The notes beneath the pieces were generated by a model, which did not search any database, was not told the origin of the DNA, and saw only the letters and a program-made list of their open reading frames with translations. DNA of 33,459 nt from Acidobacteriota bacterium. Its GTDB lineage: Bacteria; Acidobacteriota; Terriglobia; Acidiferrales; UBA7541. A program made the translations under genes and the position numbers. How positions within the stretch are numbered: the stretch's first letter is position 1; the number at the start of each line of letters is the position of its first letter. This document shows, piece by piece, positions 22,655 through 33,459 of this stretch. Location of the stretch: contig JAGWRH010000111.1 of the NCBI GenBank assembly GCA_028876695.1, positions 1 to 33,459 of the forward strand. Reading direction: 5' to 3'.

Positions 22655-23848
22655 TCAGCAGGCCCGTTTCCAGCTTGCGGGCGCGTCGATGTACGAGCGG
22701 TCAAGATCCGCGACCGAGGCACATCCGAGGAGCTTCAAAACGCGTTCCAAGTCGGCGCGAAGGATTTGAAGCGCGCGCGCAACGCCTGCTTCGCCCGCGG
22801 CGCTGAGTCCGTAGGCATAGGCGCGGCCGATGAGCACGGCGCGGGCGCCAAGGCAGATCGCCTTGGCAATGTCACTTCCGCGGCGCACACCACCATCCAT
22901 AAGGACAACACCGCGGCTGCCGACCGCCTCGACAACTTCCGGCAATGCACGGAGAGATGCCGCGACACAATCGAGTTGCCGCCCGCCGTGATTCGATACG
23001 ACAACTCCTGCAGCGCCCTCGTCCATCGAGCGGCGAGCGTCGTCGCCGGTAAGCACCCCTTTGACGATGATCGGTCCCTTCCAGGCATCGCGCAACCACC
23101 GAACGTCGCTCCACGTGACCACCGAACGGCTCAGCGCCGCCTGGGTTTCCGCCAGCGGCATCGCTCCGCGGCCGGGAACGATCACGTTGGGCAACGTCAG
23201 CATTCCGCCATCGCGCAAGAATCCGGCTAGCCAGCTTGGCTTCGCCAGCACTTGCGGCAAATGCGGGACCTTGGCGAGGAAGCTTGGTCCGGTGAGGGCG
23301 CCTGCGCCGTTGCGGACGTCGCGCTCGCGCAAACCGAACGTGCCAGTGTCGATCGTAATCGCCAGAACCGTGAATCCCGCCTTCTGAGCCCGTTCGAGGG
23401 TAGCTTCGGCGGCTTCGCGCCCGCCGACGAGATATAGCTGATACCAACGCGGCCCGCTGGAAGCCTGCGCTACATCTTCAAGCCGGCTGCCGGAGATGGT
23501 GGAAAGTACGTAACCTACGCCCGCCTTCCCGGCGGCCCGCGCCGCGACCACTTCACCGCGCGGCCACATCATTCGCGTGAATCCAACCGGCGCGAGCAAC
23601 AGTGGCATTGAAAGATTGCCGCCCAGTACCTCGGTGCGGATGTCGCATCGGTCCACAAACAGTGCGTTGCGTGGGCGGAATGTGACGTCCTCGAATGCGC
23701 GGACGTTTTCGCGCAGTGTGACTTCGCCCTCGGCGCCGCCATCGACGTACTCGAAGACTGCACGCGGCAACCGCCGCTGCGCCGCGCGGCGCAGATCCGC
23801 GATATTGACGACGCGCGGCAGCGCGACTCTGCGTTCCGCGCGCGTCAT
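22655..23848 (-). CDS. FMN-dependent alpha-hydroxy acid dehydrogenase/oxidase (LldD / mandelate dehydrogenase / glycolate oxidase family)
   Basis: The track ORF runs to 24307 and overlaps the divergent ThDP gene. I chose the ATG at 23848 (MTRAERRVALPRVVNIADLRRAAQRRLPRAVFEYVDGGAEGEVTLRENV). The diagnostic motif VVSNHGGRQLD is present. Product length is 397 aa. Confidence 0.9.
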   Translation of the reverse strand: MTRAERRVALPRVVNIADLRRAAQRRLPRAVFEYVDGGAEGEVTLRENVRAFEDVTFRPRNALFVDRCDIRTEVLGGNLSMPLLLAPVGFTRMMWPRGEVVAARAAGKAGVGYVLSTISGSRLEDVAQASSGPRWYQLYLVGGREAAEATLERAQKAGFTVLAITIDTGTFGLRERDVRNGAGALTGPSFLAKVPHLPQVLAKPSWLAGFLRDGGMLTLPNVIVPGRGAMPLAETQAALSRSVVTWSDVRWLRDAWKGPIIVKGVLTGDDARRSMDEGAAGVVVSNHGGRQLDCVAASLRALPEVVEAVGSRGVVLMDGGVRRGSDIAKAICLGARAVLIGRAYAYGLSAAGEAGVARALQILRADLERVLKLLGCASVADLDRSYIDAPASWKRAC

Positions 23849-23995
23849 CGCTGGTCGCCCTCTCTCGGCGAAGATACCACTCGATTGAGAAGGTGCAAGG
23901 AAACCCCTTTCGCGCGGCCATTCTACCCGGTATTCTCTAGATTTTGTTGGGCAGATATATGATCGGCAGCGCTGAGCGGTTCGAGGAGACCAGCA

Positions 23996-25642
23996 ATGAA
24001 GGCCGGTGACGCGATCGCGGAAATCCTCAAACGCGAGGGCGTCGAGATTATTTTTGGATACCCCGTAAATCACCTGCTCGAATCCGCGGCCGCGCTTGGG
24101 ATCCGCCCGATCATCGTGCGACAGGAGCGCGTTGGACTGCACATGGCGGATGCGCTTTCGCGCCTGAGCAGCGGCCGAAAGCTCGGGGTGTTCGCCATGC
24201 AGCACGGCCCGGGCGCTGAGAACTCGTTTGGCGGAGTGGCGCAGGCATTCAGCGAATCCGTGCCGATACTGGTGCTGCCGATGGGTTATCCGCGCCGCAT
24301 TGCGCAAATTGATCCCAATTTCCGCTCTGCGGTGAGCATGCAGACCGTGACGAAGTCCGCTGAAGCAATCTGGTCAACCGCCGAGATCCCAAACATCTTT
24401 CGCCGCGCGTTTTCGCGCCTTCGCAACGGACGCGGCGGGCCGGCAGTTATCGAGATACCGATGGACGTTTTTGGCGAGGAAGTTCCCGAGCCAATCGCGT
24501 ACGGGCCCGTTGTTTCCGCGCGGTATGCTCCGGATCCAGCGGAGGTCCGGCGCGCGGCACAGGCTTTGGTCGAAGCGAAAAACCCCGTCATCTATGCCGG
24601 GCAAGGCGTCCATTGGGCGCTCGCTTGGCGCGAACTGAAATCGCTGGCCGAGATGCTGGGCGCACCGGTGGCCACGAGCCTGCAAGGAAAGAGCGCGTTC
24701 CCGGAAAATCATCCGCTCGCGCTCGGCGCCGGAGGAAATTCGTTTCCGGCGACGGTGCCGCATTTTCTGCGGAACGCCGACTGGATTTTCGGCGTTGGCT
24801 GCAGCTTTACGCAAAGCACGTTCGCTGTGGCCATGCCGCCCGGCAAGAAGTTTATTCATGCCACGCTCGATCCGAATCACATCAACAAGGACGTGCCCGC
24901 TGAGATTGCTCTAATCGGAGACGCGCAGTTGACGCTTGAAGGGCTGTGCGGCGAACTGACCAAACTTTTGCGAATGCCTCAGCCGAGGTCATGGCCTGTG
25001 GAGGCTGAAATCGCGCGCGTCCGCGAGGCGTGGCTTGCCGAATGGTCCTCGCGCATTAATTCGGACGAGGAGCCGTTCTCGCCATACCGCGTACTACGCG
25101 ATTTGCAACGCACCGTGGATGTGGCTAACACAATCATCACGCACGACGCTGGGAGCCCGCGCGATCAGCTCGCGCCATTTTGGGTCAGCACGGAGCCGCT
25201 CAGTTATATTGGGTGGGGAAAGACGACGCAACTCGGCTATGGCCTCGGACTGGCGATGGGTGCGAAGCTCGCTTGTCCCAATAAGCTCTGCATCAATGTG
25301 TGGGGCGACGCGGCAATCGGCTTCACCGGCATGGATTTTGAAACCGCCGTGCGCGAACGGATCCCGATCCTCTCAATCCTCCTCAATAATTTCAGCATGG
25401 CCATGGAAATCCCGATCATGCCGATATCGACGGAAAAATATCGCTCGACGGATATTTCGGGCGACTACGCAGCCATGGCGCGTGCGTTCGGCGGATATGG
25501 CGAGCGGGTGACGTCGATCAAGGAAATCGTACCGGCGATTCGGCGCGGGATCGAGCAGACGCGCAAGGGCGTACCGGCCCTCCTGGAATTTATTACGAAG
25601 AAGGAGACCGCGCTATCGCGTCAATATCATTCGCCGAGCTAG
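23996..25642 (+). CDS. Thiamine-diphosphate-dependent enzyme (acetolactate synthase / benzoylformate decarboxylase superfamily)
   Basis: 548 aa with the three-domain layout. The N-terminal PYR domain has GVEIIFGYPVNHLL...HGPGAENSFGGVAQAFSESVPILVL. The ThDP motif is GDAAIGFTGMDFETAVRERIPILSILLNN. SD GAGGAG lies 8 nt upstream of the ATG. Confidence 0.9.
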   Translation: MKAGDAIAEILKREGVEIIFGYPVNHLLESAAALGIRPIIVRQERVGLHMADALSRLSSGRKLGVFAMQHGPGAENSFGGVAQAFSESVPILVLPMGYPRRIAQIDPNFRSAVSMQTVTKSAEAIWSTAEIPNIFRRAFSRLRNGRGGPAVIEIPMDVFGEEVPEPIAYGPVVSARYAPDPAEVRRAAQALVEAKNPVIYAGQGVHWALAWRELKSLAEMLGAPVATSLQGKSAFPENHPLALGAGGNSFPATVPHFLRNADWIFGVGCSFTQSTFAVAMPPGKKFIHATLDPNHINKDVPAEIALIGDAQLTLEGLCGELTKLLRMPQPRSWPVEAEIARVREAWLAEWSSRINSDEEPFSPYRVLRDLQRTVDVANTIITHDAGSPRDQLAPFWVSTEPLSYIGWGKTTQLGYGLGLAMGAKLACPNKLCINVWGDAAIGFTGMDFETAVRERIPILSILLNNFSMAMEIPIMPISTEKYRSTDISGDYAAMARAFGGYGERVTSIKEIVPAIRRGIEQTRKGVPALLEFITKKETALSRQYHSPS

Positions 25643-28548: not shown

Positions 28549-30339
28549 TTAGGCCCATTCGTCAATCGAAGTGCCACGGTCCGGCATAAAATCCGTGGCG
28601 AACCACACGCTTGCGGTCTTTCCGCCGGTGACGATCGCGTGAATGGCATTCGCATTCGCGAACGGTTTGATCAGCGTATCGCCGGTAACACCCAGCCAAT
28701 CCGCGTACGGTTTCAGTCCTTGGCGCGCCAGCGGAGCGAGCATGCTGGACACAATCGAATTCCCCCAGTACGACTCCGCGGTCTTCTGAACGTTCTGCGA
28801 GAGCCACTGACCGAGCGCCGCCTTGGTTTTGAAACCTTGCACGCCACTCAACAGATCCGCAACGGATGGGTCCATAATCAGCGTGGCGCCCATCCCTGAA
28901 AGCGACGACATATAGTCGCGCATCAGGAATTGCGGTGCGTAGTGCTGCTCCACCCAACCCGTGCTATTGATGAAATTCCAGCCGGTGAAGATCGTCACCA
29001 CGCTGTCCGTTGCCTGATGCCCCAACTGGACGTGCAAAGGCTGCCATCCCGGCGGCAGAGCCTCCTCGTTTTCGGCGAAGCAGAGGTTGTCGTACCGGAG
29101 CGGGTTGCTGAGCGAAGCGAAACCGGTCACGCCCTCGACGTATCCCTGAATGACTTTGTGTATCAGGGTCATCGAGCGGCCGATAACTGCGTTCGCCTCA
29201 TTGTCCGGGCCCAGAGCGCCCATCCCGGAGTTCATGCCGATCTTGTTGCGGATCGGACCGTTGACCACGACCATCTGCGCGATCGAGGTCGTGGAATCCT
29301 GATACGGCACTCGAGTTGAGAGCGCCAGGATGACCGGCAGATATTCCGGCCTCGCGCCGGCCATAACGGCAATTGTGGCGACTTTCTCGACGGTGAACGG
29401 GCGGCGCGAGCCGAACGTCCCCGCGGCGCTTTTCACCACTTCATCCGGCGCGTGGCTGGTGCCCTTGAGCATGGCGGCGACCCGCTCCGGCGTGGGAAGG
29501 ATTACCGGGTTGTAGTCCGTCCAGCCCTTCTGCCGAAACAGGTCCTGCAGGTTGTCCTGGCTATCCGGCCGAAGCATGCGCGGCTCGGCCGCAGGCGCAT
29601 CTGGCGACGGTCCTGACAAATTCTCCCTGGCCGAGAGCGGTTTTGTAAGCCCATCGACAATTGCGCGCATAAAAGGCGCGCCGCTGACGGTATCTTTGCC
29701 GTGGACGTACGACGCCAGCACCGAGCGCGGCTGGCCGGAGAACGGAAAAGGTACGCCGACAAAGCGCAGCGGCATGCCGGTGTTGTACTGGAAATTAGCT
29801 CCGAGCCCGAACGACACGACGTTTGAGCCCGCAAGAGACACGGTTGGGATGTGATACTTCTGCTCGATTTCTCCAGCTTCGCGGCTCACGGCCCCGACGC
29901 AGCCGTGTCAACCGGCTACACCGATGACGACGCCGTCGCCGTGATTCCCGGCGATCTCCTTCCACAGGCCCGGATCATCGGTAACGAAGTTGCCGGCCTT
30001 GATCTTGATGATTATCTTTGCGCTGGGAATGTTCTGCGCAAACCATTTCTGGATTTCTTCCAGGATGCCGTCGTTCTGCTGCATCCCTCCCCAGTCTGTA
30101 TCCACCAGGTAAATGGTTTTACCTTCGAGCGTGCTGAGCCGCGGCGCAAGCGGAACGCGGTCCGCGAACCTCGTTGCGATCGCGGGATTCAGCACCGACA
30201 CCATACTGTTATCCGACCCGCAATTTGCGGCTTCTGGGACACGTTTTGAGGCTGCCGGAGAGGTACGAGCAAATGACGGGCTAACCGCCGCGAGGGCCGG
30301 ACTTACACCGAGCAGCGCCAACATTTTTCGTCGATCCAT
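28549..30339 (-). CDS. Putative selenoprotein, paralog 1 (~596 aa): Tat-like signal, GrdB/PrdB-like UxxC redox module, ~450-aa module of unknown family; in-frame UGA at 29910-29908
   Basis: Track ORFs 29908-30441 and 28549-29889 share one frame (both upper bounds are divisible by 3). Hand translation across the junction gives ...GDGVVIGVAG-TGA-HGCVGA-GTG(V)-SREAGEIEQKYHIPTV. The GTG used by the track as a start is only 6 codons after the TGA. I chose the ATG at 30339 because GGAGG lies at 30350-30346 with a 6-nt spacer. The N-terminus reads MDRRKMLALLGVSPALAAVSPSFA. The coding potential of both halves is certain. Read-through as Sec is an inference. Confidence 0.7.
29880..29907 (-). promoter_or_regulatory. 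Candidate SECIS-like hairpin(s) immediately 3' of the UGA of paralog 1
   Basis: The mRNA reads UGA CACGGCUGCGUCGGGGCCGUGAGCCGCG. Option A: CACGGC (29907-29902) pairs perfectly with GCCGUG (29892-29887), leaving a 9-nt loop. Option B starts 11 nt after the UGA: CGGGGC (29896-29891) pairs with GCCGCG (29885-29880) with one G-G mismatch and loop CGUGA. Folded by eye only. Confidence 0.4.
29908..29910 (-). other. In-frame UGA, candidate selenocysteine codon (motif GVAG-U-HGC)
   Basis: Plus-strand tca at 29908-29910. The flanking codons are GGT (Gly) on the 5' side and CAC GGC TGC (His-Gly-Cys) on the 3' side. Paralog 2 has a UGA at the same motif position. Confidence 0.7.
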
Positions 30340-30376: not shown

Positions 30377-32140
30377 TCAGTGGGCACCGTTACTTGGTTC
30401 ATCCGGCAGGCCGCAACTTCCGTCGGCGCAGCCGTCTGCAAGCGGCTTCGCCCGCCATTTATCGACAGAAGCGCTGACGGTGTGCGAAAAATCCGAAACC
30501 TTCCACATTGGGCTCGTTTCGCCCCCGACGACCACGATGTTCATGTTTTCCGGCTTATCATATGGGGCAATCAGCGCGTCTTTTGGCAATTTCTTCCAGG
30601 TAGCGTAAGGTTCCACGCCTTGAATCGCAACCGGACCCATGAGCATGTCGATCAGGTCGTTGTCCCAAAATTCGCCCGCGGGCATTTTGAAGTTTAATGA
30701 AAGCCACCGGCAAAAATCGAGCTTGGTTTGGAAACCTTCGTCGTGCTTCAGGTGGCGCGCTACGAGCGGGTCGAGTATGAGCGTCGCGGCAGAGAACAAT
30801 CCGGGCAGCGGCCGCAATTGGGTGAACATGTCCTCGCCAATCGATCGACGCGATGATCCGACGACATTGTTGATAAAATTCCAGCCGCGGAAGAGGCTGA
30901 CTGCGCTTTCATGCGCCTCGTAGCCCTTTTGCGCATGAAACGGTTCCCAGGGACTCCGTTCCTCGTTTTCCGCCACGCACATGTTGTTGTACCCGATCGG
31001 ATTGCCCTGCGACGTCCAGAACTGCTTTCTCAACCGGAAATAGCCCCAATTGATGCTCAGAAGAGTCCAGGCGCGGCCGATTACGGAATTGGCGAGCGCT
31101 CGGGGGCTGAATGCGCCAATACCGGAATTCATCTCGATCTCGTTGCGAATGGGACCGTTCACCAAAAGCATGGTCGCAAACGGGGTGGTCGAGCCGGGAA
31201 TCGAAGGCTGACCCGTTGAGGCCACGGCCAGAAGAACGGGCAGATGCTCGGGCCGCGCCCCGGCCATCACCCCAACAATCGCCACCATCTCGACCGTGAA
31301 TTTCAAGTGTTCGCGCGTGTCGTGAAGATAGATCTCGCCGACCACCTCGTCCGGCGCATGTGTAGTGCCGGTGAGCATATGCCCAACGCGCTCCTCGGTA
31401 GGCAGGATGATCGGAAGACCGTCGGTCCAGCCGCGCTCGTAGAACAGGCGCTGCAGATTGTCCTCTGTATCGGGTTCCAGCAGTGCTTGCCGTACGCCGG
31501 TCCGCGTGACTGGCACGTACGTATCGGCGCGCTCATCTTCTCCAAGCGGTTTGGTGAGGGCTTCAATGATCTCGTCAGTCACGCTGCGATGGCTTGCCGG
31601 ATCCGTTCCCTCGATGTATTTGCGAAGCACCGCCGCGGTCATTCCCGCGACCGGATGCGGTGTGTATGTAAAGCGGAGCGGAACGCCATGGAAGCGGCGA
31701 TCGTCCGCAAGAACGGCGGCGAATTCGAGGGTGGACACCGGCGCCGTCGGAATTCCGTATTCCTGTTCAAGCGTGCGGGAGCAAGTGGCAACTGCCACCG
31801 CGCAGCCGGGTCAACCAGCGACGCCCAAAATCGCGGCGTCACCGTGCTCCTCGATTTCCAGCCACAAATCTTTGGTGTCGTCGCGAAACACGTTGCCCGG
31901 CTTTCGCCGGCGCACGGTCTTCACGGCCGGCATATGCTCCTGGAACCATGACTGCATTTCATCCAGAAATTTGCCGCTGCCGCCGAATCCTGTATCGACC
32001 AGATAAACGGTCTTGCCTTTCAGCGTATCGAGACGTGGCGCCATGCCTGACGATGCGCCTCTTCCTGGTGGCGCTCCATCGGGAGTGATCGTTCGATAGC
32101 CTTCGGGATTCAACACTGCGGACGTTACTTGCGTAGCCAT
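30377..32140 (-). CDS. Putative selenoprotein, paralog 2 (~587 aa): UxxC redox module plus ~450-aa module of unknown family; in-frame UGA at 31813-31811
   Basis: Track ORFs 31811-32140 and 30377-31798 share one frame (both upper bounds = 1 mod 3). The junction reads ...DAAILGVAG-TGA-PGCA-GTG(V)-AVATCSRTLEQEYGIPTA. The ATG at 32140 is preceded by AGGAG (32152-32148) with a 7-nt spacer. The protein aligns along its whole length with paralogs 1 and 3. Confidence 0.7.
31785..31798 (-). promoter_or_regulatory. Candidate SECIS-like hairpin 12 nt 3' of the UGA of paralog 2
   Basis: The mRNA reads UGA CCCGGCUGCGCG GUGGC AGUU GCCAC U. This gives a perfect 5-bp stem (31798-31794 / 31789-31785) and a tetraloop AGUU containing G-U. 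A flanking G-U wobble is possible. Folded by eye only. Confidence 0.45.
31811..31813 (-). other. In-frame UGA, candidate selenocysteine codon (motif GVAG-U-PGC)
   Basis: Plus-strand tca at 31811-31813. The flanking codons are GCT GGT (Ala-Gly) on the 5' side and CCC GGC TGC (Pro-Gly-Cys) on the 3' side. Confidence 0.7.
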
Positions 32141-32198
32141 GCGCCTGCTCCTGAATCGAGTTCTGGTAACAAATTACAGCGATGTGAAGAAAGGCCGG

Positions 32199-33459
32199 TC
32201 AGATCCACTCATCGACCGGCGCGCTCTTGACGTATCGCATCCCGCCGTAATCCCAATACAGATTATTCGACGATCCAGTGACGAGGACGTTGATTTGCGC
32301 TTTGCTTCGGAAATGCGGCGTCGATTCGTCCTGGCTCTGATAGAGAAACTGGGTAAGCTTCTCGACCGTGTCGTAGCCCTCGCTCTTCATGTAATTGGCC
32401 ACGGCCGGGCTAAGGACGGCCAGGATTCCGAAGAGTTGATCCTGATCGTTCGAGATGTTTTTCAGTTCCTGGGCGAAGTTCATATCTTTCGACCATATCG
32501 CGTGTCTGGAGTTCTTGGCCGAAATCACGCCCCAGCCCTCGAAGATGCTCACCACGTTGTCGCCCGCCTTGAATCCGTGGCGGGCGCTGAACGGCTGCCA
32601 TGGCGATTCTTTTTCGTTTTCGGCAATAATGATGTTGGCGTAATTCATCGGATTCCCGATCACGCCCATGTAAGTCTCACCGGCCTTGCCGCAATTTCCT
32701 CCGTTCAGCGAAAGCAGCGCATAGGCCCGGCCGATGGTGGCATTGGCGTGGCTGAAAGGCCCCAGTGCGCCGATGTGATAATTCAGGCCGATCTGATCGC
32801 GAATCGGACCGTTAATCACAACCGCTTCGGCAAACGAATTGTCCGAGCTTGAGATGGATTCCTTGCCGATGGATGCAATTGCCAAGATCACCGGAAAATA
32901 TTTCGGGTCGGCTCCCGCCATCACGGCATTCACCGCTACCTGCTTCACCGTGTACGACCAGTCTTCATAGACCCCTGGTGTCGGCGACATACGCCCGACG
33001 ATCTCGTCGGGCTTTCGGCTGGTGCCCTTGAGCATCGCTTCAACACGGTCCTCGGTCGGAAGCACGATGGGCAGGTAATCCGTCATTCTTTTTTCGATGA
33101 ACAAGCGCTGCAGGTTATCGGAGCTGTCGGGACCGAACGTTGCCGCGCCTGCGGATTGCGGGATCGTCCGGCTCGCGGTGTCTTCGTTGTTGAGCGGTAC
33201 CGTCAGTTGGTCAACGATCTCCTTCATCACGGCTTTGCCAGTGACGGGATCATTGCCGTCGATCACGTCGCGCTGGAGTTGTTCCGCCGTCTTGCCCCAG
33301 ACGGGCGATTTCACATAGGTGAATCGCAAGTGCGGCATACCTTTTTTCGCGGCATTTTCCTGCACGAGCTGCTGGAAATACTGGGTGATGATCGAGACGG
33401 TCGGCTTGTGATATTCGGATTCGAAGAAGACGTTATGGCCAACGACCGCTGGCGAGCAG
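32199..33459 (-). CDS. Paralog 3 of the same family; 5' end runs off the window at the UxxC motif
   Basis: The track calls GTG at 33365 as the start, but the frame stays open to the window edge. Hand translation of 33458-33366 gives CSPAVVGHNVFFESEYHKPTVSIITQYFQQL, followed by VQENAAKKGMPHLRFTYV... The Cys at 33458-33456 aligns with the Cys of U-x-G-C in paralogs 1 and 2. Base 33459 (C on the minus strand) fits the GGC Gly codon seen in both other copies. Confidence 0.8.
   Translation of the reverse strand, partial: CSPAVVGHNVFFESEYHKPTVSIITQYFQQLVQENAAKKGMPHLRFTYVKSPVWGKTAEQLQRDVIDGNDPVTGKAVMKEIVDQLTVPLNNEDTASRTIPQSAGAATFGPDSSDNLQRLFIEKRMTDYLPIVLPTEDRVEAMLKGTSRKPDEIVGRMSPTPGVYEDWSYTVKQVAVNAVMAGADPKYFPVILAIASIGKESISSSDNSFAEAVVINGPIRDQIGLNYHIGALGPFSHANATIGRAYALLSLNGGNCGKAGETYMGVIGNPMNYANIIIAENEKESPWQPFSARHGFKAGDNVVSIFEGWGVISAKNSRHAIWSKDMNFAQELKNISNDQDQLFGILAVLSPAVANYMKSEGYDTVEKLTQFLYQSQDESTPHFRSKAQINVLVTGSSNNLYWDYGGMRYVKSAPVDEWI

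What the first reader, a model, noticed from the sequence alone, without database searches (positions are those of the whole stretch)
31785..31813. In-frame TGA no. 2 at the identical motif position (GVAG-U-PGC) with a GUGGC-AGUU-GCCAC hairpin 12 nt downstream
Directly read sequence: GGC GTC GCT GGT TGA CCC GGC TGC GCG GTG GCA GTT GCC ACT. A second, diverged paralog carries TGA at exactly the same alignment column, which argues strongly against a random nonsense mutation or sequencing error. The hairpin (perfect 5 bp, tetraloop AGUU with G-U) starts 12 nt after the UGA. The two paralogs keep a stem-loop at the same place although the underlying codons differ.
Basis: partly seen in the sequence, partly recalled or inferred. 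Interest (0 to 1): 0.8.

Follow-up and report, generated by a model that had tools for sequence, protein, structure and literature searches.

The report
Selenocysteine codon with its insertion hairpin
The in-frame TGA is almost certainly a genuine selenocysteine codon, followed by the RNA hairpin that directs selenocysteine insertion, in a gene of the already described but functionally uncharacterised "UGSC" selenoprotein family that public annotation wrongly splits into two genes.

Summary
TGA lies at 31813..31811. Twelve nucleotides later comes GUGGC-AGUU-GCCAC (31798..31785). A diverged tandem paralog has TGA at the same column (29910..29908).

The TGA joins two "ORFs" into one 587-codon gene (30377..32140). 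Its N-terminal domain matches Pfam PF24696, the UGSC selenoprotein family.

- All 120 homologous copies in 80 loci from several phyla carry TGA at this column.
- More distant uninterrupted relatives have CxxC aligned to UxxC, a Sec/Cys pair.
- TGA is an ordinary stop elsewhere in the window.
- The hairpin alone is not significant (z = +0.34), but it is conserved: 94% of copies against 4% of control positions.
- Its stem covaries, including at purely synonymous sites.
- Its loop codons are restricted to give an RGUY tetraloop. The loop GU sits one nucleotide from its place in the E. coli fdhF SECIS.

The family and its Sec site are already known, so this is a new member of a known kind. Of modest added interest:
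- three tandem Sec paralogs, two with Tat-like signal peptides;
- fusion to a roughly 450-aa domain with no Pfam match and no solved structural analogue;
- systematic mis-annotation.

Sec insertion itself was not shown experimentally.

The parts
30377..32140 (-). Complete selenoprotein gene (paralog 2): 587 codons, Sec at codon 110 (GVAG-U-PGC), its own stop TGA at 30379..30377. It has an N-terminal UGSC domain and a roughly 450-aa C-terminal domain of unknown function.
   Evidence: Translation through the TGA. Pfam PF24696 scores 64.1 bits against a gathering cut-off of 25, over residues 29-176, so the match spans the TGA. Homologs are split at the TGA by gene callers. The architecture is conserved in 114 copies.
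31811..31813 (-). UGA read as selenocysteine (inferred).
   Evidence: TGA at this column in 120 of 120 aligned copies. CxxC is aligned to UxxC in uninterrupted distant relatives. TGA is a normal stop in 9 of 16 other Pfam-supported genes of the window.
31784..31799 (-). SECIS apical hairpin: 6-bp stem (GGUGGC/GCCACU, the outer pair G-U) and tetraloop AGUU (31793..31790), with loop G and U at positions 22-23 counted from the U of UGA.
31781..31803 (-). Extended SECIS stem: three further pairs (GCG/UGC) below a one-base bulge (C at 31800). It is less well conserved than the apical stem.
   Evidence: Minimum-free-energy structure. Pairs 11-33 and 12-32 are mostly kept, while pair 13-31 is broken in 47 of 79 sequences.
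32148..32152 (-). Shine-Dalgarno-like AGGAG, 7 nt upstream of the ATG at 32140..32138.
   Evidence: Read directly from the sequence.
28549..30339 (-). Paralog 1: Sec codon TGA at 29910..29908 (GVAG-U-HGC). Its SECIS hairpin is at 29897..29879, a 7-bp stem with one G.G mismatch and loop CGUGA. It has a Tat-like signal peptide, MDRRKMLALLG....
32199..33459 (-). Paralog 3, cut by the window end just after the Cys of UxxC. Its SECIS hairpin GCCAGC-GGUC-GUUGGC lies at 33453..33438. Its TGA is expected 6-8 nt beyond the window end.
   Evidence: Orthologs in L002, L006, L007, L011, L012 and L049 read TGA AGC TAC TGC TCG CCA GCG GTC GTT GGC.

Best explanation
The TGA at 31813..31811 (minus strand) is a selenocysteine codon. 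It sits inside one continuous 587-codon gene whose N-terminal domain belongs to the UGSC selenoprotein family.

Inferred mechanism: when the ribosome reaches the UGA, the hairpin that begins 11-12 nt downstream acts as a bacterial SECIS. The hairpin has a 5-6 bp stem and an RGUY tetraloop with exposed G and U. It would recruit the specialised elongation factor SelB carrying Sec-tRNA(Sec), so that selenocysteine is inserted instead of termination.

The resulting U-x-x-C motif lies between a beta-strand and the N-terminus of a helix in a Rossmann/flavodoxin-like domain. It most likely forms a redox-active selenenylsulfide centre serving the fused C-terminal domain of about 450 aa, whose function is unknown.

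Shown here: conservation of the TGA, reading-frame continuity, the Sec/Cys pair, hairpin conservation, covariation and synonymous-site constraint.

Inferred: SelB binding, actual Sec insertion and redox function.
For: (1) Family: Pfam PF24696 (UGSC) scores 64.1 bits against a cut-off of 25, and the match spans the TGA. NCBIfam NF041046 'UGSC family (seleno)protein' gives E = 2.5e-14. UGSC-containing proteins are a published UxxC selenoprotein family (PMC2398784; PMC13188914).

(2) TGA conservation: 120 of 120 aligned copies in 80 loci have TGA at this column. The loci come from Acidobacteriota, Dehalococcoidia, Actinomycetota, Dormibacterota, Bacillota and a deltaproteobacterium. Each copy reads about 110-140 codons, TGA, then about 450-480 codons in one frame. 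In the protein database the close relatives appear only as pieces ending at, or starting after, the TGA.

(3) Sec/Cys pair: among uninterrupted distant relatives, six have CxxC (CSTC, CPGC, CGSC) at the UxxC columns. Of 30 such relatives, 29 carry PF24696.

(4) No code reassignment: TGA terminates 9 of 16 other Pfam-supported genes in the window, and this gene itself.

(5) Hairpin frequency: a perfect stem of at least 4 bp with GU in the loop at positions 20-23 occurs in 107 of 114 copies. It occurs at 4.0% of 42,735 other in-frame positions of the same genes. For stems of at least 6 bp the figures are 75% against 0.66%.

(6) Covariation: 86.2% of cells pair in register against 33-59% when the 3' arm is slid. 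The covariation score is 0.439 against 0.07-0.14. Pairs 15-30, 16-29, 17-28, 18-27 and 21-24 change on both sides. The paralog-1 class gives 90.8% against 29-46%.

(7) Synonymous-site evidence: pair 18-27 joins two codon third positions and is G/C in 57, A/U in 28 and discordant in about 5 sequences. Loop positions 21/24 are G..C in 64 and A..U in 12. The loop Ala codon is only GCG or GCA (0 of 74 GCC/GCT, against 59% in the background). The loop Val codon is only GUC or GUU (0 of 77 GUG/GUA, against 37%).

(8) Geometry: the verified E. coli fdhF SECIS has an 11-nt spacer, loop GGUC and GU at positions 23-24. Here the spacer is 11-12 nt and GU is at 22-23.
Against: No experiment shows Sec in the protein.

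[quoted passage not shown] There is no tRNA-Sec in the window or in 60 related loci, which is uninformative because these genes are usually unlinked.

No Rfam family matched the hairpin.

The hairpin of this one sequence is not thermodynamically exceptional (z = +0.34).

The copies are phylogenetically related, so the frequency and Fisher statistics overstate independence.

The upper stem lacks the bulged U of the E. coli element.

The proteins score below the NCBIfam equivalog cut-off (53.5 bits against 125).
Confidence: 0.93

Rival explanations
1. The TGA is a true stop. The locus holds two separate genes, a 109-aa N-terminal protein and a 473-aa protein started at the GTG 12 nt downstream, or a gene broken by a nonsense mutation (a pseudogene).
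For: Gene callers and public records annotate it this way. A GTG lies 12 nt after the TGA.
Against: The Pfam UGSC domain spans the TGA, residues 29-176. The xGC residues directly after the TGA are conserved in frame. The same split occurs in 120 of 120 copies across phyla, which a decaying pseudogene would not show. Uninterrupted relatives with Cys at that column exist. No ribosome-binding site was looked for or noticed between the TGA and the GTG.
Confidence: 0.02
2. The UGA is read through or recoded, but not as selenocysteine. Examples are near-cognate Trp or Cys insertion stimulated by the hairpin, or a lineage-wide UGA reassignment.
For: Nothing here measures the inserted residue. Downstream hairpins can stimulate read-through in other systems (general knowledge).
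Against: TGA is a normal stop in the same window, so there is no reassignment. The position is the known Sec/Cys redox position of a described selenoprotein family. The hairpin has the spacing and GU loop specific to SelB-dependent SECIS elements.
Confidence: 0.03
3. The TGA is a Sec codon, but the hairpin is only a by-product of the Ala/Val-rich codons of the helix after UxxC (GCN GUN GCN). The true SECIS would lie elsewhere or differ in form.
For: The two apical pairs come from conserved Ala codons, GC...GC. The single-sequence fold is not significant. A different small stem that encloses the UGA is also enriched.
Against: Covariation at synonymous third positions (pairs 18-27 and 21-24) cannot come from protein-level selection, and neither can the exclusion of the commonest synonymous codons in the loop. 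Amino-acid pairs at U+5 and U+10 change together so as to keep pairing: V/T, A/A, S/D, S/G. Three paralog classes with different peptides all keep a GU-loop hairpin at the same distance.
Confidence: 0.03
4. The TGA is a sequencing or assembly error for TGC or TGT.
For: None beyond the general possibility. The reads were not available.
Against: The same TGA is found in 120 independently assembled copies, including two in this window.
Confidence: 0.005

Closest known systems
UGSC-containing selenoproteins (Pfam PF24696; NCBIfam NF041046; Zhang and Gladyshev 2008, PMC2398784)
   Same: The N-terminal domain matches PF24696 above the gathering score. Sec lies in a UxxC motif at the same alignment column as canonical U-GSC copies found next door in L008 and L038. 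Sec forms greatly outnumber Cys forms among close relatives, as reported for the family (255 against 21).
   Different: The motif here is U-PGC (U-HGC and U-SYC in the paralogs), not U-GSC. The score is below the NCBIfam equivalog cut-off, 53.5 bits against 125. The domain is fused to a C-terminal domain of about 450 aa with no Pfam match. The predicted fold is Rossmann/flavodoxin-like rather than the thioredoxin-like fold guessed in 2008.
'UGSC/Unknown_1' fusion selenoprotein reported from the GOS metagenome (PMC2398784, Figure S1A)
   Same: A UGSC domain fused to a conserved domain of unknown function.
   Different: Identity of Unknown_1 with the C-terminal domain here could not be checked. 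The figure is held only as an image and the sequence file is truncated.
Minimal bacterial SECIS of E. coli fdhF
   Same: It lies inside the ORF directly after the UGA. The spacer to the base of the apical hairpin is 11-12 nt. The stem is 5-6 bp and the four-base loop has G and U in the middle. Most relatives have exactly GGUC, as in fdhF (PMC4607533).
   Different: The loop GU is at positions 22-23 instead of 23-24. There is no bulged U in the upper stem; a bulged C lies below it. The loop here is AGUU. Binding to SelB is untested.
GrdB/PrdB (glycine and D-proline reductase selenoprotein subunits, Pfam PF07355)
   Same: A UxxC motif after a beta-strand, followed by a helix and a 'GIP' strand. 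This resemblance is recalled from memory and is only a lead.
   Different: There is no PF07355 match even at E <= 10, and no sequence match to any PDB chain. This gene is not filed under that family.

Membership tests
UGSC family (Pfam PF24696) | Domain match above Pfam's gathering score | tested here: met
   64.1 bits against 25 for paralog 2, 37.8 for paralog 1 and 29.1 for the partial paralog 3.
UGSC family (NCBIfam NF041046, equivalog) | Score above the curated equivalog cut-off of 125 bits | tested here: not met
   53.5, 19.1 and 23.6 bits. These are divergent, fused relatives, not the canonical 147-position equivalog.
UGSC family | Sec (or Cys) as the first residue of a UxxC motif at the family's conserved column | tested here: met
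   The TGA aligns with the TGA of U-GSC copies in L008 and L038, and with CGSC, CSTC and CPGC in uninterrupted relatives.
UGSC family | The literal tetrapeptide U-G-S-C | tested here: not met
   The motif here is U-P-G-C. Across 114 copies the counts are UPGC 70, UDGC 16, UHGC 13, USYC 6, UEAC 4 and UGSC 2.
Selenoprotein gene (general criteria) | In-frame TGA conserved among homologs, with conserved coding sequence on both sides | tested here: met
   120 of 120 copies. The tblastn matches span the TGA with E-values from 1e-47 to 1e-108 for orthologs.
Selenoprotein gene (general criteria) | Homologs with Cys in place of Sec | tested here: met
   Six CxxC forms among 31 aligned uninterrupted representatives. 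None was found among the 360 closest database hits.
Selenoprotein gene (general criteria) | Sec machinery (selA, selB, selC, selD) in the same genome | not testable with these tools
   None in the 33-kb window or near the related loci.
Bacterial SECIS element | Stem-loop within the ORF immediately downstream of the UGA, with about 11 nt to the base of the apical hairpin | tested here: met
   The spacer is 11 nt counting the G-U pair and 12 nt without it. fdhF has 11 nt.
Bacterial SECIS element | Conserved G (and U) in the apical loop | tested here: met
   GU is in the loop in 108 of 114 copies. The G is at position 22 in 91 copies and at position 20 in 13.
Bacterial SECIS element | Stem supported by compensatory changes | tested here: met
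Bacterial SECIS element | Bulged U in the upper stem (E. coli type) | tested here: not met
   The upper stem is perfect. A single bulged C lies below it. From general knowledge this feature is not universal among bacteria.
Bacterial SECIS element | Match to a curated RNA family model | tested here: not met
   No Rfam hit at the site at E <= 10.
Bacterial SECIS element | Binds SelB and directs Sec insertion | not testable with these tools
   This needs an experiment.
GrdB/PrdB reductase selenoproteins (PF07355) | Sequence match to the family model | tested here: not met
   No hit at E <= 10.
Thioredoxin-fold oxidoreductases (suggested for UGSC in PMC2398784) | Thioredoxin-like fold around the UxxC motif | tested here: inconclusive
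   The AlphaFold model of a CPGC homolog (pLDDT 89.5) shows alternating beta-alpha units. Foldseek finds only weak, generic Rossmann/flavodoxin-like matches (E >= 3e-3) and no thioredoxins among the top 50.

The most novel reading that the evidence does not exclude
The three tandem genes may encode an uncharacterised two-domain selenoenzyme family. Each has a Rossmann-like U-x-x-C domain fused to a domain of about 450 aa with no Pfam family and no solved structural analogue. Two of the three paralogs appear to be Tat-exported. Together they would form a periplasmic/cytoplasmic selenium-dependent redox system with new chemistry. It is abundant in soil Acidobacteriota and Dehalococcoidia and invisible in current annotation, because every copy is split at the TGA.
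Probability: 0.35. Interest if true: 0.6.

Novelty: new member of a known kind. Interest (0 to 1): 0.35.

Why it matters
For annotation: the close relatives seen in public databases, which were all of the 360 best hits listed, are recorded as two truncated ORFs. Some are even named "UGSC family (seleno)protein" while being cut at the Sec codon. Recognising the TGA and its SECIS restores proteins of about 590 aa.

For RNA biology: the family offers an unusually clean natural data set of covariation and synonymous-site constraint for a bacterial SECIS outside the classical model organisms. It comprises 114 copies in three structural classes.

For biochemistry: it points to a widespread, uncharacterised selenoprotein architecture in soil bacteria whose function is open.

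None of this overturns current understanding. The family and the mechanism are known.

Tried and rejected
1. An Rfam scan of the whole window at E <= 10 found nothing at the site. The only hit was a chance snoRNA-like match at 22861..22930.

2. Single-sequence folding statistics are not significant for this paralog and only weakly so for paralog 1, with z = -1.3 to -1.7. They were rejected as evidence either way.

3. The tRNA-Sec search in the window and in 60 loci found none. This is uninformative.

4. The C-terminal domain could not be identified.
- Pfam and NCBIfam gave no hit, even at E <= 10.
- A profile search of PDB sequences gave none.
- Foldseek with two AlphaFold models gave only non-significant matches. 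The second had pLDDT 89.5, best E = 3e-3 and TM <= 0.32.

5. The GrdB/PrdB kinship, recalled from memory, is not supported by Pfam.

6. I tried to check whether the 2008 'Unknown_1' domain is this C-terminal domain. The figure is an image and the dataset is truncated.

I modelled the post-TGA part and a full-length Cys homolog instead.

8. A second small stem that encloses the UGA in its loop is enriched: at least 5 bp in 64% of copies against 12.5% at control positions. Its register shifts between copies, so I regard it as a probable by-product of the GCN-GGN-UGA-NNN-GGC-UGC codons.

9. Conserved-neighbour analysis gave only an SDR gene upstream in the Dehalococcoidia/Chloroflexota loci, with no shared operon partner across phyla.
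Full report
OBSERVATION

The quoted sequence is on the minus strand. TGA is at 31813..31811. Twelve nucleotides (CCCGGCTGCGCG) follow, then GUGGC (31798..31794), AGUU (31793..31790) and GCCAC (31789..31785). A G-U pair (31799/31784) lengthens the stem to 6 bp. After a bulged C, three more pairs can form.

Translating through the TGA joins two mechanical ORFs, 31811..32140 and 30377..31798, into one frame of 587 codons. The frame reads ...AILGVAG-U-PGCAVAVATCSRTLEQEYGIPTAP....

The neighbouring gene, 28549..30339, has TGA at 29910..29908 in ...VVIGVAG-U-HGCVGAVSREAGEIEQKYHIPTVS.... A third paralog, 32199..33459, is cut by the window end exactly after the Cys of the motif.

On its own the hairpin is unremarkable for 59% G+C DNA, with z = +0.34 and -0.25 against shuffles.

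WHAT THE GENE IS

The N-terminal 180 residues or so match Pfam PF24696 'UGSC family'. The score is 64.1 bits against a gathering cut-off of 25, and the match covers residues 29-176, so it spans the TGA.

They also match NCBIfam NF041046 'UGSC family (seleno)protein', with E = 2.5e-14. The score of 53.5 bits is below that model's equivalog cut-off of 125.

UGSC-containing proteins are a published selenoprotein family with a UxxC motif. They are one of the most abundant families in the GOS metagenome, with 255 Sec forms against 21 Cys forms, and they have no known function (PMC2398784; reviews).

The remaining 400 residues or so have no Pfam or NCBIfam match, even at E <= 10, and no sequence relative in the PDB.

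IS THE TGA A SEC CODON?

Close relatives are always interrupted.
- The 120 best database matches to the full protein all cover at most 81% of it. They are gene calls that start after the TGA.
- The same holds for paralog 1.
- The 120 best matches to the 109-aa upstream piece are 104-169 aa long, so they end at the TGA.

I fetched 80 related loci from species-representative genomes. They come from Acidobacteriota (Candidatus Acidiferrales is closest at 85-86% identity), Dehalococcoidia, Actinomycetota/Gaiellales, Dormibacterota, Bacillota and a deltaproteobacterium. I located the codon aligned to the U column in each. All 120 aligned copies have TGA.

Each copy has the same architecture: about 110-140 codons, one TGA, then about 450-480 codons in the same frame. 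Two of them (L008, L038) carry the literal U-GSC motif at that column.

A profile search of 1.84 billion representative proteins found 5,282 relatives. Of the best 150, 35 are uninterrupted proteins of at least 500 aa. When aligned, six have CxxC (CSTC three times, CPGC once, CGSC twice) exactly at the UxxC columns, one has CGGM, and the rest have lost both residues. Of 30 of these relatives, 29 carry PF24696. This is the classical Sec/Cys pair.

TGA is not reassigned. It terminates 9 of 16 other Pfam-supported genes in the window, and this gene itself. Assembly error is excluded by the 120 independent copies.

IS THE HAIRPIN A SECIS?

Frequency. Of 114 distinct copies, 107 have a perfect stem of at least 4 bp beginning 9-21 nt into the message, with GU in the apical loop at positions 20-23. 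Positions are counted with the U of UGA as 1. The same test is passed at only 4.0% of 42,735 other in-frame positions in the same genes. For stems of at least 5 bp the figures are 85% against 1.6%, and for at least 6 bp they are 75% against 0.66%. The loop G is at position 22 in 91 copies and at position 20 in 13.

Structural classes. There are three:
- a tetraloop class, with GGUC in 62 copies, AGUU in 12 (including this gene) and GGUU in 2;
- a CGUGA pentaloop class (paralog 1);
- a GAGUNUC class.

Pair counting on the tetraloop class. On a gap-free alignment of 79 sequences, 86.2% of cells pair in register, against 33-59% when the 3' arm is slid by 1-3 columns. The covariation score is 0.439 against 0.07-0.14. 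Pairs 15-30, 16-29, 17-28, 18-27 and the loop-closing 21-24 change on both sides. No shuffle out of 500 reached the observed values. The tool warns that related sequences can exceed every shuffle without any structure, so the slide control is the more telling one.

Pair counting on the paralog-1 class. It gives 90.8% against 29-46%. The window's own paralog 1 has one G.G mismatch, which several orthologs repair to G-U, A-U or C-G.

Synonymous-site evidence. This is the strongest single argument.
- Pair 18-27 joins the third positions of two codons and is G/C in 57 sequences, A/U in 28 and discordant in about 5.
- Loop positions 21/24 are also both third positions. They are G..C in 64 and A..U in 12.
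- The loop Ala codon is only GCG or GCA. GCC and GCT make up 59% of Ala codons nearby but occur in 0 of 74 here.
- The loop Val codon is only GUC or GUU, with 0 of 77 GUG or GUA against 37% nearby.
- The amino acids at U+5 and U+10 change together (V/T, A/A, S/D, S/G, T/G) so as to keep pairing.
Protein-level selection cannot produce these patterns.

Geometry. I recalled the E. coli fdhF SECIS sequence, UGA CAC GGC CCA UCG GUU GCA GGU CUG CAC C. I confirmed that it lies in fdhF in 5,419 of 5,426 complete E. coli genomes. There the spacer is 11 nt, the loop is GGUC and GU is at positions 23-24. Here the spacer is 11-12 nt, the loop is RGUY and GU is at 22-23. Published descriptions of the minimal bacterial SECIS speak of a 5-6 bp apical hairpin a few nucleotides after the UGA (PMC4607533).

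Differences from the E. coli element: there is no bulged U in the upper stem, and no Rfam model matches.

I conclude that the hairpin is the SECIS. Binding of SelB and insertion of Sec are inferred, not shown.

THE PROTEIN

An AlphaFold model of the post-TGA part of this gene has pLDDT 77.6. A model of a full-length CPGC homolog (P0372) has pLDDT 89.5 and pTM 0.90.

In the second model the N-terminal domain is built of alternating beta-alpha units. The CxxC, which corresponds to UxxC, lies between strand 94-100 and helix 105-118. That is a typical position for a redox-active pair at a helix N-terminus.

Foldseek against the PDB gives only weak, generic Rossmann/flavodoxin-like matches, with best E = 3e-3 and TM <= 0.32. 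Nothing matches the C-terminal domain.

I therefore commit only to a selenenylsulfide redox centre serving an unknown catalytic or binding domain. The GrdB/PrdB resemblance that I recalled is not supported. A 2008 report of a 'UGSC/Unknown_1 fusion' may describe the same architecture, but I could not verify it.

CONTEXT

The three paralogs lie head to tail on the minus strand, as in the closest MAG (L081/L002). An AGGAG lies 7 nt before the ATG of this gene.

Paralog classes 1 and 3 begin with a conserved MDRRKMLALLG...A, a Tat-like signal, and two orthologs have a Sec-type signal instead. The class of this finding has no signal peptide.

The rest of the window encodes a MarR regulator, a PQQ dehydrogenase, TPP, FMN and FAD enzymes, and an exopolysaccharide cluster. 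It holds no Sec machinery. In 27 Dehalococcoidia/Chloroflexota loci an SDR gene sits directly upstream on the same strand.

VERDICT

The selenoprotein family, the Sec position and the mechanism are already known, so this is a new member of a known kind. Four things give it modest added value:
- the fusion architecture without any characterised or solved relative;
- the triple tandem Sec paralogs with export signals;
- the clean covariation data set;
- the systematic mis-annotation.

Interest: 0.35.

Noticed in passing
window 29879..29910 (-): Paralog 1's own Sec codon (TGA 29910..29908) and SECIS. It is a 7-bp stem with loop CGUGA, and the window copy has a G.G mismatch at pair 17-29. Several orthologs repair this to C-G, G-U or A-U.
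   Followed up: yes
window 33438..33459 (-), at the window edge: The third paralog's SECIS hairpin, GCCAGC-GGUC-GUUGGC, is inside the window. Its TGA should lie 6-8 nt beyond the window end. Orthologs read TGA AGC TAC TGC (U-SYC).
   Followed up: partly
window about 30270..30339 (-); L001-L016 and L049 orthologs: Paralog classes 1 and 3 start with a conserved MDRRKMLALLG[VA]SPAL...A, a twin-arginine (Tat)-like signal peptide. Two class-3 orthologs have a Sec-type signal instead. The class of the finding has none. Two of the three tandem selenoproteins therefore look periplasmic. This is a motif-level inference only; no Tat HMM hit was obtained.
   Followed up: partly
window 31801..31820 (-) and the same place in relatives: A small stem can enclose the UGA itself in a 4-9 nt loop (here GCUGG-UUGAC-CCGGC). 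A stem of at least 5 bp occurs in 64% of copies against 12.5% at control positions. Its register shifts between copies, so it is probably a by-product of the conserved Ala-Gly-U-x-Gly-Cys codons. A role as an alternative structure is not excluded.
   Followed up: partly
public records (P0002, P0049, P0096, P0261, P0264; L081 gene table): Public annotation splits every copy at the TGA into a piece of about 110 aa and a piece of about 450-475 aa. NCBI names some of the truncated pieces 'UGSC family (seleno)protein' without joining them.
   Followed up: yes
L017-L072 (27 Dehalococcoidia/Chloroflexota loci), e.g. L017:2932-3903: A short-chain dehydrogenase/reductase gene (PF00106) lies directly upstream of the fusion selenoprotein gene on the same strand, sometimes in two copies. 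It is a possible operon partner.
   Followed up: partly
L049:4334-4345: One ortholog (Candidatus Acidiferrales MAG TC-S_metabat2.bin.184) has a 1-nt deletion just after the TGA (TGACCCGG-TGCGCC). This shifts the frame. It is either a pseudogene or an assembly error.
   Followed up: no
L081:506-7566 (upstream of the three paralogs in the closest MAG; outside this window): The three-paralog cluster is preceded by divergently oriented genes for PEP-utilising/PPDK_N proteins, a biotin carboxyl carrier, a biotin carboxylase, a carboxyltransferase (HMGL-like/PYC_OADA) and a HAD hydrolase. Together they look like a carboxylase-type module.
   Followed up: no
window 22655..25642: The mechanical ORFs for an FMN-dependent dehydrogenase (minus strand) and a TPP enzyme (plus strand) overlap by about 300 nt. 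The FMN_dh Pfam match starts only at residue 176, so the true start is probably much further downstream.
   Followed up: no
uninterrupted relatives P0363-P0507: Most uninterrupted members of the two-domain family have neither Sec nor Cys at the UxxC columns (S, T, M, A, G or H instead). The C-terminal domain therefore also works with a redox-dead N-domain, and the Sec/Cys centre may be accessory rather than catalytic.
   Followed up: partly
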